From assembly GCA_964016885.1 (NCBI GenBank), contig OZ024754.1:21328001-21392000 (forward strand): a DNA stretch of 64,000 nt, written 5' to 3'. The notes under the pieces were generated by a model. The model saw nothing but the letters and a program-made list of their open reading frames with translations, had not been told where the DNA came from and searched no databases. Below, piece after piece: positions 38,010 through 58,954 of the stretch; the first letter of the stretch is position 1, and every line of letters begins with the position of its first letter. The translations under genes were made by a program, and so were the position numbers. Origin of the DNA: Eledone cirrhosa. Its lineage: Eukaryota.

Positions 38010-40567
38010 TTAACTAGTTTTAATAAATTGTCTAGATGTTAAGTATATACTATATTAACTACAGTTTTAATAAATTGTCTAGATGTTAAGTATATACTAT
38101 ATTAACTACAGTTTTAATAAATTATCTAGATGTTAAGTATATACTATATTAACTACAGTTTTAATAAATTGTCTAGATGTTAAGTATATCCTATATTAAC
38201 TAGTTTTAATAAATTGTCTAGATGTTAAGTATATACTCTATTAACCACAGTTTTAATAAATTGTCTAGATATTAAGTATATACTATATTAACTACAGTTT
38301 TAATAAATTGTCTAAATGTTAAGTATATACTATATTAACTACAGTTTTAATAAATTGTCTAGATGTTAAGTATATACTATATTAACTACAGTTTTAATAA
38401 ATTGTCTAGATGTTAAGTATATACTATATTAACTACAGTTTTAATAAATTGTCTAGATGTTAAGTATATACTATATTAACTACAGTTTTAATAAATTGTC
38501 TAGATGTTAAGTATATACTATATTAACTAGTTTTAATAAATTGTCTAGATGTTAAGTATATACTCTATTAACCACAGTTTTAATAAATTGTCTAGATGTT
38601 AAGTATATACTATATTAACTACAGTTTTAATAAATTGTCTAAATGTTAAGTATATACTATATTAACTACAGTTTAAATAAATTGTCTAGATGTTAAGTAT
38701 ATACTATATTAACTACAGTTTTAATAAATTGTCTAGATGTTAAGTATATACTATATTAACTACAGTTTTAATAAATTGTCTAGATGTTAAGTATATACTA
38801 TATTAACTACAGTTTTAATAAATTGTCTAAATGTTAAGTATATACTATATTAACTACAGTTTAAATAAATTGTCTAGATGTTAAGTATATACTATATTAA
38901 CTACAGTTTTAATAAATTGTCTAGATGTTAAGTATATACTATATTAACTCCAGTTTTAATAAATTGTCTAGATGTTAAGTATATACTATATTAACTACAG
39001 TTTTAATAAATTGTCTAGATGTTAAGTATATACTATATTAACTTCAGTTTTAATAAATTGTCTAGATGTTAAGTATATACTATATTAACTAGTTTTAATA
39101 AATTGTCTAGATGTTAAGTATATACTATATTAACTACGGTTTTAATAGATTGTCTAGATGTTAAATATATACTATATTAACTACAGTTTTAATAAATTGC
39201 CTAAATGTTAGGTATATACTATATTAACTACAGTTTAAATAAATTGTCTAGATGTTAAGTATATACTATATTAACTACAGTTTTAATAAATTGTCTAGAT
39301 GTTAAGTATATACTATATTAACTACAGTTTTAATAAATTGTCTAGATGTTAAGTATATACTATATTAACTACAGTTTTAATAAATTGTCTAGATGTTCAG
39401 TATATACTATATTAACTACAGTTTTAATAAATTGTCTAGATGTTAAGTATATACTATATTAACTACAGTTTTAATAAATTGTCTAGATGTTAAGTATATA
39501 CTATATTAACTACAGTTTTAATAAATTGTCTAGATGTTAAGTATATACTATATTAACTACAGTTTTAATAAATTGTCTAGATGTTAAGTATATACTATAT
39601 TAACTAGTTTTAATAAATTGTCTAGATGTTGAGTATATACTCTATTAACCACAGTTTTAATAAATTGTCTAGATGTTAAGTATATACTATATTAACTAGT
39701 TTTAATAAATTGTCTAGATGTTAAGTAAATACTATATTAACTACAGTTTTAATAAATTGTCTAGATGTTAAGTATATACTATATTAACTTCAGTTTTAAT
39801 AAATTGTCTAGATGTTAAGTATATACTATATTAACTAGTTTTAATAAATTGTCTAGATGTTAAGTATATACTATATTAACTACGGTTTTAATAGATTGTC
39901 TAGATGTTAAATATATACTATATTAACTACAGTTTTAATAAATTGCCTAAATGTTAGGTATATACTATATTAACTACAGTTTAAATAAATTGTCTAGATG
40001 TTAAGTATATACTATATTAACTACAGTTTTAATAAATTGTCTAGATGTTAAGTATATACTATATTAACTACAGTTTTAATAAATTGTCTAGATGTTAAGT
40101 ATATACTATATTAACTACAGTTTTAATAAATTGTCTAGATGTTCAGTATATACTATATTAACTACAGTTTTAATAAATTGTCTAGATGTTAAGTATATAC
40201 TATATTAACTACAGTTTTAATAAATTGTCTAGATGTTAAGTATATACTATATTAACTACAGTTTTAATAAATTGTCTAGATGTTAAGTATATACTATATT
40301 AACTACAGTTTTAATAAATTGTCTAGATGTTAAGTATATACTATATTAACTAGTTTTAATAAATTGTCTAGATGTTGAGTATATACTCTATTAACCACAG
40401 TTTTAATAAATTGTCTAGATGTTAAGTATATACTATATTAACTAGTTTTAATAAATTGTCTAGATGTTAAGTAAATACTATATTAACTACAGTTTTAATA
40501 AATTGTCTAAATGTTAAGTATATACTATATTAACTACAGTTTAAATAAATTGTCTAGATGTTAAGTA

Positions 40568-40934
40568 TATAGCGGAGATTACTGGTTATATGAATGTAAC
40601 AAAACGAGACAATGTTTGTGTATATAATATTTAATTAACGGTAGATAGAATACTTGACATGTCAAAGATAGATGTTAGAATGAAACAAAGTTAGTAGTTA
40701 CCGTTTTGATTGCCAGGCAAATGCGGCTGGCAGAGGGCGCCTGGCTAAGGCCAGGCGCCTGTTGGCCAAATTAATGGCAGAGCCAAATGAGAAGACTCTT
40801 GACCTGGTGCCGAAAAGGCAAAGAGAGAGAGGAAGCTTAAAGTTGTTAGTTTTATAGGGCTCTCACCGGAAGTTGCAGAAAGGGTTCCACTTCCCGTCTA
40901 GATCCCAATCAAAACAAGGGAGACAACCGCTACA
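40568..40934 (-). repeat. 3' LTR (367 bp)
   Basis: Appears identical by eye to 42196-42562. Confidence 0.95.
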
Positions 40935-40946
40935 TAACCTCCCGCC
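40935..40946 (-). other. Polypurine tract
   Basis: The minus strand reads GGCGGGAGGTTA immediately before TGTAGCGG of the 3' LTR. Confidence 0.8.
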
Positions 40947-41810
40947 AGAATTTTAGTGTATAAAAATCGAAATGAAAATATGTAGCAAGTTGGCGAGAAT
41001 GTTGTAACAGGCATGAAAATTACGACAAAAGAATGTTTGGAAAAATCAATGATAGATATCAAGGTAGCCAACCGCTCTTGGCCAGAGAACGACTGGACAT
41101 CCCTCTATCCATCACCCAAAGATACAATGTAATAAAGTAAAAGTAATAAAAGAGCTCAAAGTTCAAAATATAGTTCACAGGTGTGCAATCACATGACAGC
41201 GGGAAAGAAAGTGTTCCAGAGAATGAATGCAGGTGGTTTCTGTTCTGTGGTATATCGTGAAATTTCCAACCTCCGAATGGATTTTCTCACAGGAAGAGTG
41301 CTGCAAAAATAAATTCTCTGGCTTTGGTGAAGCTGTGTTGATGTATTGCTGTTGCTGTTATATTGCTGTTGCTGCTGCTGTTGTCTCGCTGAGTGAGCGT
41401 ATTCGGTGTTTAAATTCACAGTAAAAAAATTTTTTTTTAGAAAAAAATGAGTTGCGCAAAGTGCTAGAAATAGCAGCCGAAGTTGATGGTCGATGTTGAG
41501 AATGCGTTGACCTGGAAGGGTCAAGAGGCCAGCGACCAGAGAAATAAGCATTCTTAATAAATGCGCGGTTATCAACGGTAAATTTACATTGTAAATTTAT
41601 AAACCGGCAAATAGAAGAATATAGCTTAAGGCTGAAGAATCCCTGGTGATAAATGGCGTGCGGCTGTCTGTGAGAAGAGACATCTCAGTGAATCGAGAAT
41701 TTATGCTGCCTACACGTGCCAATACAAGGTTGAAAAAAAATATTTCTAACGCGCGAGAAAATGATAGTGCAATTTTGAAAGTGACAATGATGAAATGTTT
41801 TTTAAAGAAT

Positions 41811-41816
<6 letters not shown>

Positions 41817-41854
<38 letters not shown>

Positions 41855-41977
41855 GTTTTGAAAGAGTTCGTTGTAAGAAACGAGAAACATATATATATAT
41901 CGTGAAATGTTTTTTTTTTGTTTTGAAAGTGTTCGTTGTAAGAAACGAGAAACATATATATATATATTGGTGAAATG
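41817..41977. repeat. Poly-T tract (~36 nt; poly-A on the element strand) followed by a 2-copy tandem repeat of 65-bp period
   Basis: T run at 41817-41852. GTTCGTTGTAAGAAACGAGAAACATATATATAT starts at 41866 and 41931. Confidence 0.9.
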
Positions 41978-42162
41978 CGACAGTTAATTGATGCGTGAGA
42001 GAAAAAGTATGTCTGTGCGAATTCCACATGTGCGTGTGTGCGTGTCCTTGAGTATTTTCATAGTTTGTCGCTAAATTTGCTGTGTATTCGTAATGTTACT
42101 CACAAAACCAGATGTGCTATTTTTTTCTTTTTTTGGGGGGGTGACCACTTATAGCGATGAAC

Positions 42163-42194
42163 GGCTGCGTGTTCGTATCACGTCGGGGTCACCA
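42163..42194 (-). other. tRNA-Trp primer-binding site, extended to 32 nt
   Basis: The minus strand reads TGGTGACCCCGACGTGAT..., 1 nt after the 5' LTR. The plus strand GGCTGCGTGTTCGTATCACGTCGGGGTCACCA matches the 3' part of metazoan tRNA-Trp as I recall it (GG[C/T]TGCGTGTTCGAATCACGTCGGGGTCA+CCA). Confidence 0.88.
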
Positions 42195-42195
42195 A

Positions 42196-42562
42196 TATAG
42201 CGGAGATTACTGGTTATATGAATGTAACAAAACGAGACAATGTTTGTGTATATAATATTTAATTAACGGTAGATAGAATACTTGACATGTCAAAGATAGA
42301 TGTTAGAATGAAACAAAGTTAGTAGTTACCGTTTTGATTGCCAGGCAAATGCGGCTGGCAGAGGGCGCCTGGCTAAGGCCAGGCGCCTGTTGGCCAAATT
42401 AATGGCAGAGCCAAATGAGAAGACTCTTGACCTGGTGCCGAAAAGGCAAAGAGAGAGAGGAAGCTTAAAGTTGTTAGTTTTATAGGGCTCTCACCGGAAG
42501 TTGCAGAAAGGGTTCCACTTCCCGTCTAGATCCCAATCAAAACAAGGGAGACAACCGCTACA
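42196..42562 (-). repeat. 5' LTR (367 bp)
   Basis: Adjacent to the PBS; direct repeat of 40568-40934. Confidence 0.95.
42478..42484 (-). promoter_or_regulatory. Candidate TATA box in the LTR U3 region
   Basis: The minus strand reads GCCC-TATAAAA ~80 nt into the LTR. A candidate polyA signal ATTAAA lies at 42258-42263 (minus), followed by a GT-rich tract. Confidence 0.55.
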
Positions 42563-43231
42563 AGTATATACTATATTAACTACAGTTTTAATAAATTGTC
42601 TAGATGTTAAGTATATACTCTATTAACCACAGTTTTAATAAATTGTCTAGATGTTAAGTATATACTATATTAACTACAGTTTTAATAAATTGTCTAAATG
42701 TTAAGTATATACTATATTAACTACAGTTTAAATAAATTGTCTAGATGTTAAGTATATACTATATTAACTACAGTTTTAATAAATTGTCTAGATGTTAAGT
42801 ATATACTATATTAACTACAGTTTTAATAAATTGTCTAGATGTTAAGTATATACTATATTAACTACAGTTTTAATAAATTGTTTAAATGTTAAGTATATAC
42901 TATATTAACTACAGTTTAAATAAATTGTCTAGATGTTAAGTATATACTATATTAACTACAGTTTTAATAAATTGTCTAGATGTTAAGTATATACTATATT
43001 AACTCCAGTTTTAATAAATTGTCTAGATGTTAAGTATATACTATATTAACTACAGTTTTAATAAATTGTCTAGATGTTAAGTATATACTATATTAACTAC
43101 AGTTTTAATAAATTGTCTAGATGTTAAGTATATACTATATTAACTACAGTTTTAATAAATTGTCTAGATGTTAAGTATATACTATATTAACTAGTTTTAA
43201 TAAATTGTCTAGATGTTAAGTATATACTATA

Positions 43232-47735: not shown

Positions 47736-48443
47736 GTTTTGAAAGAGTTCGTTGTAAGAAACGAGAAACATATATATATATCGTGAGATGTTTTTTTTTT
47801 GTTTTGAAAGTGTTCGTTGTAAGAAACGAGAAACATATATATATATATTGGTGAAATGCGACAGTTAATTGATGCGTGAGAGAAAAAGTATGTCTGTGCG
47901 AATTCCACATGTGCGTGTGTGCGTGTCCTTGAGTATTTTCATAGTTTGTCGCTAAATTTGCTGTGTATTCGTAATGTTACTCACAAAACCAGATGTGCTA
48001 TTTTTTTCTTTTTTGGGGGGGGTGACCACTTATAGCGATGAACGGCTGCGTGTTCGTATCACGTCGGGGTCACCAATATAGCGGAGATTACTGGTTATAT
48101 GAATGTAACAAAACGAGACAATGTTTGTGTATATAATATTTAATTAACGGTAGATAGAATACTTGACATGTCAAAGATAGATGTTAGAATGAAACAAAGT
48201 TAGTAGTTACCGTTTTGATTGCCAGGCAAATGCGGCTGGCAGAGGGCGCCTGGCTAAGGCCAGGCGCCTGTTGGCCAAATTAATGGCAGAGCCAAATGAG
48301 AAGACTCTTGACCTGGTGCCGAAAAGGCAAAGAGAGAGAGGAAGCTTAAAGTTGTTAGTTTTATAGGGCTCTCACCGGAAGTTGCAGAAAGGGTTCCACT
48401 TCCCGTCTAGATCCCAATCAAAACAAGGGAGACAACCGCTACA
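46451..48443 (-). mobile_element. Non-autonomous LTR retrotransposon, copy 2
   Basis: LTRs at 46451-46817 and 48077-48443; same AGTA TSD, PBS and PPT. Confidence 0.95.
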
Positions 48444-52597: not shown

Positions 52598-53303
52598 GTT
52601 TTGAAAGAGTTCGTTGTAAGAAACGAGAAACATATATATATATCGTGAAATGTTTTTTTTTTGTTTTGAAAGTGTTCGTTGTAAGAAACGAGAAACATAT
52701 ATATATATTGGTGAAATGCGACAGTTAATTGATGCGTGAGAGAAAAAGTATGTCTGTGCGAATTCCACATGTGCGTGTGTGCGTGTCCTTGAGTATTTTC
52801 ATAGTTTGTCGCTAAATTTGCTGTGTATTCGTAATGTTACTCACAAAACCAGATGTGCTATTTTTTTCTTTTTTTGGGGGGGTGACCACTTATAGCGATG
52901 AACGGCTGCGTGTTCGTATCACGTCGGGGTCACCAATATAGCGGAGATTACTGGTTATATGAATGTAACAAAACGAGACAATGTTTGTGTATATAATATT
53001 TAATTAACGGTAGATAGAATACTTGACATGTCAAAGATAGATGTTAGAATGAAACAAAGTTAGTAGTTACCGTTTTGATTGCCAGGCAAATGCGGCTGGC
53101 AGAGGGCGCCTGGCTAAGGCCAGGCGCCTGTTGGCCAAATTAATGGCAGAGCCAAATGAGAAGACTCTTGACCTGGTGCCGAAAAGGCAAAGAGAGAGAG
53201 GAAGCTTAAAGTTGTTAGTTTTATAGGGCTCTCACCGGAAGTTGCAGAAAGGGTTCCACTTCCCGTCTAGATCCCAATCAAAACAAGGGAGACAACCGCT
53301 ACA
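51312..53303 (-). mobile_element. Non-autonomous LTR retrotransposon, copy 3
   Basis: LTRs at 51312-51678 and 52937-53303; same TSD. One C>T at 51482 in the left LTR. Confidence 0.95.
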
Positions 53304-58246: not shown

Positions 58247-58954
58247 GTTTTGAAAGAGTTCGTTGTAAGAAACGAGAAACATATATATATATCGTGAAAT
58301 GTTTTTTTTTTGTTTTGAAAGTGTTCGTTGTAAGAAACGAGAAACATATATATATATATTGGTGAAATGCGACAGTTAATTGATGCGTGAGAGAAAAAGT
58401 ATGTCTGTGCGAATTCCACATGTGCGTGTGTGCGTGTCCTTGAGTATTTTCATAGTTTGTCGCTAAATTTGCTGTGTATTCGTAATGTTACTCACAAAAC
58501 CAGATGTGCTATTTTTTTCTTTTTTTGGGGGGGTGACCACTTATAGCGATGAACGGCTGCGTGTTCGTATCACGTCGGGGTCACCAATATAGCGGAGATT
58601 ACTGGTTATATGAATGTAACAAAACGAGACAATGTTTGTGTATATAATATTTAATTAACGGTAGATAGAATACTTGACATGTCAAAGATAGATGTTAGAA
58701 TGAAACAAAGTTAGTAGTTACCGTTTTGATTGCCAGGCAAATGCGGCTGGCAGAGGGCGCCTGGCTAAGGCCAGGCGCCTGTTGGCCAAATTAATGGCAG
58801 AGCCAAATGAGAAGACTCTTGACCTGGTGCCGAAAAGGCAAAGAGAGAGAGGAAGCTTAAAGTTGTTAGTTTTATAGGGCTCTCACCGGAAGTTGCAGAA
58901 AGGGTTCCACTTCCCGTCTAGATCCCAATCAAAACAAGGGAGACAACCGCTACA
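56961..58954 (-). mobile_element. Non-autonomous LTR retrotransposon, copy 4
   Basis: LTRs at 56961-57327 and 58588-58954; same TSD. Confidence 0.95.

What the first reader, a model, noticed from the sequence alone, without database searches (positions are those of the whole stretch)
42163..42194. PBS matches tRNA-Trp for 32 nt, past A58, with its only mismatch at position 58
Established: a PBS is usually up to 18 nt (tRNA positions 59-76) because m1A58 stops plus-strand strong-stop synthesis. Seen: similarity continues through the T-arm (GGCTGCGTGTTCG-T-ATCACGTCGGGGTCACCA), and base 42176, which corresponds to A58, is T. The same is true in copies 2-4. Inference: this is either a fixed footprint of reverse transcriptase reading through m1A58 with misincorporation, or extended primer pairing. 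The tRNA sequence is recalled from memory of metazoan tRNA-Trp(CCA).
Basis: partly seen in the sequence, partly recalled or inferred. Interest (0 to 1): 0.7.

Follow-up and report, generated by a model that had tools for sequence, protein, structure and literature searches.

The report
Fossil tRNA read-through in a retrotransposon
A small jumping gene with over 500 copies carries 14 more letters of its tRNA primer than usual, likely left by one old copying slip past a methylated tRNA base that also changed one letter; similar tRNA pieces beside dozens of other elements likely record tRNA modifications in the genome.

Summary
Confirmed: 42163-42194 matches host tRNA-Trp positions 45-76 except T58; 18 of 18 host genes examined have A58. 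It is the primer-binding region of a 2-kb non-coding LTR element (562 anchored hits) with a CsRn1-type Gypsy helper. Window copies 2-4 are tandem duplicates, not independent. The window copy is a minority type: most copies carry two further mismatches (67, 72), and the tRNA-like state arose 14-19 times by primer copying that stops at 59; no copy regained A58. Behind the 32-mer lie a duplicated LTR tip and old short PBS, so the best reading is one founder read-through past m1A58 with a misinserted base and out-of-register strand transfer, inherited since. Support: 38 other CCA-ended tRNA-Trp captures show non-A at 58 in 10 (other A positions 0 of 152) and mostly end near G37; a second Gypsy family fixed its own T58 extension. 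Extended primer pairing is possible but not shown (conservation at the 12th percentile). Closest known: lentiviral primer over-extension sequence; two-mismatch PBS of ETn/MusD. New variant of a known kind; interest 0.45.

The parts
42196..42562 (-). 5' LTR, 367 nt, ends TGT...ATA, identical to the 3' LTR
42177..42194 (-). canonical 18-nt PBS complementary to tRNA-Trp 59-76; this copy is tRNA-like at 67 (42185) and 72 (42190), where most family copies differ
42176..42176 (-). A in element sense opposite tRNA A58 (T58 in tRNA sense); likely misinsertion at m1A58 in the founder
42163..42175 (-). extension complementary to tRNA-Trp 45-57 (T-arm 5' strand and variable loop)
42148..42162 (-). junction and duplicated LTR (U5) tip, about 10-11 nt; an exact 10-nt copy of the LTR tip in the clade of L011/L021
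42138..42147 (-). inner, older short PBS; here with a C-to-G change that makes it complementary to the outer tRNA-like PBS; unchanged in 5 of 109 copies tabulated
41141..41629 (-). stretch shared with the 3' untranslated region of the coding CsRn1-type helper (82-96% identity)
40938..40948 (-). polypurine tract before the 3' LTR
   Evidence: sequence; same tract in helper
40568..40934 (-). 3' LTR
40564..40567 (+). 4-bp target-site duplication (partner at 42563-42566), inside the 47-bp satellite
48044..48075 (-). same 32-mer in tandem duplicate 2 of the insertion
52904..52935 (-). same 32-mer in tandem duplicate 3
58555..58586 (-). same 32-mer in tandem duplicate 4

Best explanation
The 32-nt match is the 18-nt primer-binding site of a non-coding CsRn1-type LTR element plus a 14-nt inherited extension, likely the scar of a single founder event in which reverse transcriptase read past the (presumably methylated) A58 of the tRNA-Trp primer to about G45, likely inserted dA opposite it, and likely landed out of register on the minus-strand U5 overhang, duplicating the LTR tip and the old short PBS. 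Shown: the match and host A58, the duplicated tip and inner PBS, the helper and hybrid junctions with it, fixation of T58, the 18-nt stop in misdirected junctions, repeated tRNA-like reversion at 67/72, and the mismatch hot spot at 58 in other captures. Inferred: that A58 (and G37) are methylated in this host, that T58 arose in the same event as the capture, and the order of events. Since then the extension is passed on like any internal sequence through the RNA, while routine plus-strand synthesis stops at 59 and now and then overwrites the family's two PBS mismatches with the tRNA sequence; the window copy is such an overwritten copy.
For: Host genes: 18 of 18 with A58, no gene-encoded CCA; no A58 sequence with A67 and T72 in the genome (0 of 3 hits). 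Scar: inner PBS plus LTR tip behind the extension, exact in the clade of L011/L021. Fixation: non-T58 in 7 family hits, all C, none A or G; 88 of 89 tRNA-like hits keep T58 and only 2 have the A57 isodecoder mark that 11 of 38 fresh captures carry. Stop at 59: 12 of 21 extension-less junctions hold exactly the 18-mer (plus or minus one T) before a jump, all with C72, 11 with G67. Reversion: 14-19 separate origins of the tRNA-like state among 105 copies; the window's nearest rows are mismatched copies; L010 has a tRNA-like outer and parent-like inner unit. Other captures: A28, T5, G3, C2 at 58 vs 0 of 152 at A59/62/73/76; 23 of 38 end at 35-40, 5 pass 37 and 2 of these are changed at G37. Second family with an inherited T58 extension to G37: 89 of 100 listed rows. 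5' and 3' LTRs differ at 6.9% in the U5 tip vs 0.75% elsewhere, as a separately templated overhang would give. Literature: minor strong-stop products past A58, to 54/55 and 37 (PMC13191261 section 10); m1A misincorporation signature (PMC4787781 passages).
Against: m1A58 was not measured in this host. 28 of 38 captures keep A58, so T58 is a 13% outcome, and one founder event cannot be told from a later point change. The helper's base next to its PBS is also T58-like, a possible alternative source. No family member without the extension but with the ancestral short PBS at the LTR was found among 21 hits, so the ancestral state is inferred from the inner copy. For most of the 38 captures the LTR nature of the flank is inferred from shared end motifs and the lack of poly(A); it was checked by LTR pair and ORFs only for L049. 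The capture search left 58 free but limited other mismatches to 2, and 9 of 109 hits were not listed.
Confidence: 0.72

Rival explanations
1. The extension is kept because it works: it pairs with tRNA 45-57 (extended priming, or a long landing pad for over-extended plus strands), which would let the family carry a two-mismatch PBS and compete with its helper for the primer. Not exclusive of the founder-scar origin.
For: Predicted duplex with the whole tRNA -72 to -82 kcal/mol vs -52 to -54 for the helper leader; net binding -26 to -36 vs -3 to -5. Mismatches pile up at 63-68 and 72 but not at 45-57. The mismatched PBS persists along the tree backbone despite repeated reversion. In the second family 5 copies are corrected towards the tRNA beyond 58, so an extension can catch read-through strands. 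Precedent: primer over-extension sequence, Ty1/Ty3 extended pairing, mismatched PBS favoured in ETn/MusD.
Against: 45-57 has 5 parsimony steps; 12% of internal 13-column windows have as few. Extra D-arm pairing is marginal (shuffle fractions 0.04-0.44). In the second family the extension decays by changes that break pairing. At most about 2 of 89 conversions in this family look like read-through landings. Energies ignore modifications and chaperones.
Confidence: 0.25
2. The tRNA piece was captured with A58 and T58 came later, by an ordinary point change in the master copy or by a short conversion from the helper's PBS, whose next base is T58-like.
For: 28 of 38 captures keep A58; helper leaders have this base; 8 of 19 helper PBS junctions are hybrids with this family, so exchange happens.
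Against: No A58 copy survives among about 562 hits, the divergent clade included; 58 is the main mismatch hot spot of fresh captures; the second family also has T58.
Confidence: 0.13
3. Reverse transcriptase reads through m1A58 to G45 in every cycle and always inserts dA, so the extension is re-copied from the tRNA each time.
For: T58 and 45-57 are nearly invariant; read-through correction exists in the second family.
Against: About 85% of hits keep A67 or T72 against the tRNA; misdirected junctions end at 59; A57 appears in 2 of 89 converted hits vs 11 of 38 captures.
Confidence: 0.04
4. The stretch came from a tRNA gene or pseudogene by DNA recombination, or is an assembly artefact.
For: tRNA-Trp gene clusters exist in the genome.
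Against: The CCA is present though not gene-encoded; hundreds of dispersed copies, 35 of 38 measured with matching 4-bp target duplications; contigs of public runs show no other letter at 42176 and the same 67/72 variants (the best holders may be the source sample).
Confidence: 0.01

Closest known systems
Primer over-extension sequence of lentiviruses and spumaviruses (PMC13191261 section 10, read in full)
   Same: Sequence right after the PBS that is complementary to tRNA beyond position 59 and can accept over-extended plus strands.
   Different: That element serves stops at 54/55; here the match runs to 45 (to 37 in the second family), carries a mismatch at 58, and sits with a duplicated U5 tip and old PBS. 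The review calls products reaching 37 non-functional; here such products appear to have founded families.
ETn/MusD/IAP two-mismatch PBS with scattered tRNA-like revertants (Cullen and Schorn 2020, PMC7472051 section 13, read in full)
   Same: Commonest PBS has two mismatches; perfect PBS copies are scattered over the tree and ascribed to copying of the primer.
   Different: There the mismatches did not fall on modified tRNA positions and no extension is described; that section says Ty1 and Ty3 strictly inherit the PBS, whereas this Gypsy-type family takes the tRNA version in about 14% (67 and 72) to 23% (72) of copies.
CsRn1 clade Ty3/Gypsy elements (PwRn1, AgCR; PMC2582038 section 6 and passages)
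   Same: tRNA-Trp PBS, 4-bp TSD, TGT...ATA/AAA ends, CHCC Gag in the helper.
   Different: The paper gives a PBS of about 12 nt; the element here is non-coding and has a 32-nt match.
Extended primer pairing of Ty1/Ty3 and the ASLV U5-T-arm contact (PMC5371799 passages; PMC13191261 passage)
   Same: Pairing beyond the acceptor stem into the T-arm.
   Different: Those are split or separate boxes shown by experiment; here the match is contiguous, looks like a direct copy of the primer, and pairing is only predicted.

Membership tests
CsRn1-clade Ty3/Gypsy (non-autonomous derivative) | PBS complementary to tRNA-Trp | tested here: met
CsRn1-clade Ty3/Gypsy (non-autonomous derivative) | 4-bp target-site duplication | tested here: met
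   35 of 38 measurable copies, of 60 examined
CsRn1-clade Ty3/Gypsy (non-autonomous derivative) | LTR ends TGT...ATA/AAA | tested here: met
   element TGT...ATA; helper TGT...AAA
CsRn1-clade Ty3/Gypsy (non-autonomous derivative) | Gag with CHCC motif and Gypsy pol order, in the coding helper | tested here: met
   CHCC in L241 and L049; RT-RH-IN order by Pfam; the element itself has only low-complexity ORFs up to 135 aa
CsRn1-clade Ty3/Gypsy (non-autonomous derivative) | RT phylogeny places the helper in the CsRn1 clade | not tested
   no named reference RTs were fetched
Non-autonomous partner of the coding element | shared cis sequence and signs of co-packaging | tested here: met
   shared 3' region in 11 of 12 helper stretches; 8 of 19 helper PBS junctions are hybrids; pol pieces captured in family copies
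Primer over-extension sequence | tRNA-complementary sequence directly after the PBS | tested here: met
Primer over-extension sequence | rescues transfer of over-extended plus strands | tested here: inconclusive
   at most about 2 of 89 conversions in this family; 5 copies in the second family; no biochemistry
Extended or bipartite primer pairing (Ty1/Ty3 type) | extra pairing needed for priming and conserved by selection | tested here: inconclusive
   predicted; conservation at the 12th percentile; D-arm pairing marginal
m1A reverse-transcription footprint | mixed mismatches concentrated at position 58 | tested here: met
   10 of 38 vs 0 of 152
m1A reverse-transcription footprint | A58 of the host tRNA is chemically m1A | not testable with these tools
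   no RNA run was listed

The most novel reading that the evidence does not exclude
Read-through plus strands, held to be dead ends in retroviruses, are a recurrent source of new primer modules in CsRn1-type elements: at least two families fixed a copied tRNA 3' half with the m1A58 error, and the copy now acts as extended pairing or a long landing pad that lets the family keep a mismatched, tRF-evading PBS and outcompete its helper; the scattered captures form a germ-line fossil map of tRNA modifications (58 and 37, with isodecoder-dependent error rates).
Probability: 0.25. Interest if true: 0.7.

Novelty: new variant of a known kind. Interest (0 to 1): 0.45.

Why it matters
It gives in-genome evidence on what a retrotransposon enzyme does at modified primer bases in the germ line: usual stop at 59, occasional read-through with mixed errors at 58, second stop near 37. 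It shows that over-extended plus strands can be integrated and found large families, and that a Gypsy-type element can inherit the primer sequence, unlike what is reported for Ty1/Ty3. It also extends the 'two-mismatch PBS with revertants' pattern beyond mouse ERVs. Each part is a variation on known reverse-transcription biology, so the surprise is moderate.

Tried and rejected
No tRNA gene in the window or in the first 30 loci. A second isodecoder as primer for the majority PBS: rejected, 0 of 3 hits have A58+A67+T72. Relationship of the element to the second family (L049): only the tRNA stretch aligns. D-arm pairing by the inner repeat: marginal. Link between U5-tip differences and PBS type: none (p=0.27). 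A non-templated extra base at 58 in misdirected junctions: mostly explained by microhomology, not claimed. Expression: no RNA holder listed. Two other labelled organisms gave single low-depth contigs (depth 2-5) consistent with T58, too weak to use. Trees: 13 of 118 units left out (rearranged or duplicated loci L003, L007, L010, L020, L025, L030, L076, L082, L193) and 7 long branches dropped for the step counts; the tree sample is enriched for tRNA-like and C58 copies and is not a frequency estimate. Literature searches found no report of a genomic PBS extension with an m1A58 error; two searches returned nothing; five older papers on Ty1 and retroviral strong-stop transfer were not held, so precedent in older virology (recalled: cloned retroviral DNAs with tRNA inserts, dual-PBS HIV mutants) could not be checked. 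No supplements were opened. Our-findings look-ups by words and by sequence were empty.

Full report
Observation. The 32-mer lies at 42163-42194 with T at 42176, and recurs three times in the window; 100 shuffles give no match. A genome search with position 58 free gave 95 hits. Twenty stretches around A- and C-type hits held 18 tRNA-Trp genes; all have A58, and the CCA is not gene-encoded. The window therefore matches mature tRNA-Trp 45-76 with one mismatch, at 58.

The element. On the minus strand the 32-mer follows a 367-nt LTR by one base. The element spans 40568-42562, has identical LTRs with TGT...ATA ends, a polypurine tract, a 4-bp target duplication and only low-complexity ORFs. It sits in a 47-bp satellite and was amplified in tandem with it, so window copies 2-4 are one insertion. 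An anchor upstream of the 32-mer finds 562 hits genome-wide (3 in the reversed control); 30 of 30 loci picked by an internal anchor carry the extension. An integrase piece captured in one copy led to the helper: a coding Gypsy element with CHCC Gag, RT-RH-IN order, TGT...AAA ends and a 3' region 82-96% identical to the element's. These are the CsRn1-clade marks listed in PMC2582038 (section 6 and passages); no RT tree was made. Of 19 helper LTR-PBS junctions, 9 have a plain 18-nt PBS, 8 are hybrids with this family and 2 jump into pol, which points to co-packaging. The helper has no extension; its next base happens to be T58-like.

The window copy is a minority type. Among the first 100 listed hits (tallied by eye) 76 carry A67 and T72, 13 are tRNA-like, 10 are tRNA-like at 72 only and 1 at 67 only. 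Genome-wide 89 hits are tRNA-like, 13 of them the window's array. No A58 gene matches the majority type. On a tree of 105 copies built without the PBS region the tRNA-like state needs 19 changes, 14 forced by well-supported branches, and the window's nearest rows are mismatched copies. L010 holds a tRNA-like outer unit and a parent-like inner unit in one molecule. The primer is thus copied into progeny in a minority of events, more often near the CCA end. This parallels ETn/MusD/IAP (PMC7472051 section 13) and differs from what that section says of Ty1 and Ty3.

Routine copying stops at 59. Non-T58 family hits number 7, all C (an eighth hit is unrelated). Of 89 tRNA-like hits 88 keep T58 and 2 have A57, a mark carried by 11 of 38 fresh captures. 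Of 21 junctions with this LTR but no extension, 12 hold exactly the 18-mer before a jump to internal, helper or inverted sequence, 6 hold 9 nt or less, one is a point mutant and two are unrelated. So the extension and T58 are inherited, not re-copied.

Origin. Behind the extension lie a copy of the LTR tip and a short second PBS; in the clade of L011/L021 the copy is exact over 21 nt of PBS plus tip. That is what an over-long plus strand would leave if it could not pair at the PBS and landed on a U5 overhang of the minus strand (inference). The two LTRs of one copy differ nine times more in the U5 tip than elsewhere, which fits a separately templated overhang, and the same duplication recurs in young copies.

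Is T58 a modification footprint? A search for CCA-ended tRNA-Trp 3' pieces outside the family (109 hits, 100 listed; plus loci) gave 42 rows. I dropped one tRNA gene and one arm of an inverted pair and merged three copies with one junction, leaving 38. Position 58 is A in 28, T in 5, G in 3, C in 2; the four other A positions show 0 of 152 changes (p=4e-8). Ends fall at 41-45 (10), 35-40 (23), 27-29 (5), none at 30-34; 2 of the 5 long ones are changed at G37. None is followed by poly(A); the flanks share LTR-end-like motifs, checked by LTR pair and ORFs only for L049. This fits stops and errors at m1A58 and a modified G37 (PMC13191261 section 10, PMC8599865 and PMC4787781 passages); the modifications were not measured here, and m1G37 in tRNA-Trp is recalled. 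A second, coding family (124 hits) carries its own inherited, decayed copy to G37 with T58 in 89 of 100 listed rows; some copies are corrected to 59 and five past 58, two of them again with T58.

Function. Folding predicts much stronger tRNA binding to the element leader than to the helper leader, and mismatches collect at 63-68 and 72 rather than 45-57. But 12% of internal windows are as conserved as 45-57, extra D-arm pairing is marginal, and the second family's extension decays. Function stays open at about 0.25.

Known and new. Closest are the primer over-extension sequence, the ETn/MusD PBS pattern, and Ty1/Ty3 extended pairing. Nine literature searches found no genomic case of a fixed extension with an m1A58 error, but five older papers were not held. 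Verdict: real feature, new variant of a known kind; founder-scar model 0.72; interest 0.45.

Noticed in passing
window 42196-42255 and loci L173-L232: The U5 tip of the LTR is hypervariable between copies and differs between the two LTRs of one copy (6.9% in the first 16 nt vs 0.75% elsewhere; differences stop after about 60 nt, peak at 9-11).
   Followed up: partly
L148, L149, L157, L159/L160, L250: Fold-back products join an 18-nt strong-stop end, from the element or from its helper, to the same 3-nt site behind the extension; the inner PBS is complementary to the tRNA-like PBS, which may explain the hot spot and may trap helper DNA.
   Followed up: partly
L049:4891-4930; one search hits: Second, coding CsRn1-type family (124 hits) with an old decayed tRNA-Trp copy to G37, T58 and a 3-nt deletion in the PBS; 3 listed copies corrected to 59 and 5 known copies corrected past 58.
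   Followed up: partly
L092, L122, L098: Captures that pass position 37 show G37C or G37T; L098 looks like a 5-nt slip across it: a likely m1G37 footprint.
   Followed up: partly
loci: Error rate at 58 is higher in captures of the A57 isodecoder (6 of 11) than of G57 (4 of 27), p=0.02.
   Followed up: no
L007, L010, L030, L145, L142, L154: Fresh duplications of the PBS plus LTR-tip unit, some with only 9 nt of PBS: the scar-forming step recurs today.
   Followed up: partly
L152:1537-1807, L162:1538-2013, L144: Integrase, RNase H and RT pieces of coding elements captured inside or beside family copies, two in antisense orientation.
   Followed up: partly
window 1-64000: 47/45-bp satellite with a higher-order unit (about 900-bp insert, over 20 times) and the LTR element amplified in tandem with it, 13 copies over about 95 kb of C14.
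   Followed up: no
L035, L036, L039 (G000 C4): Clusters of tRNA-Trp genes with G57 and A57 isodecoders and several degenerate copies.
   Followed up: no
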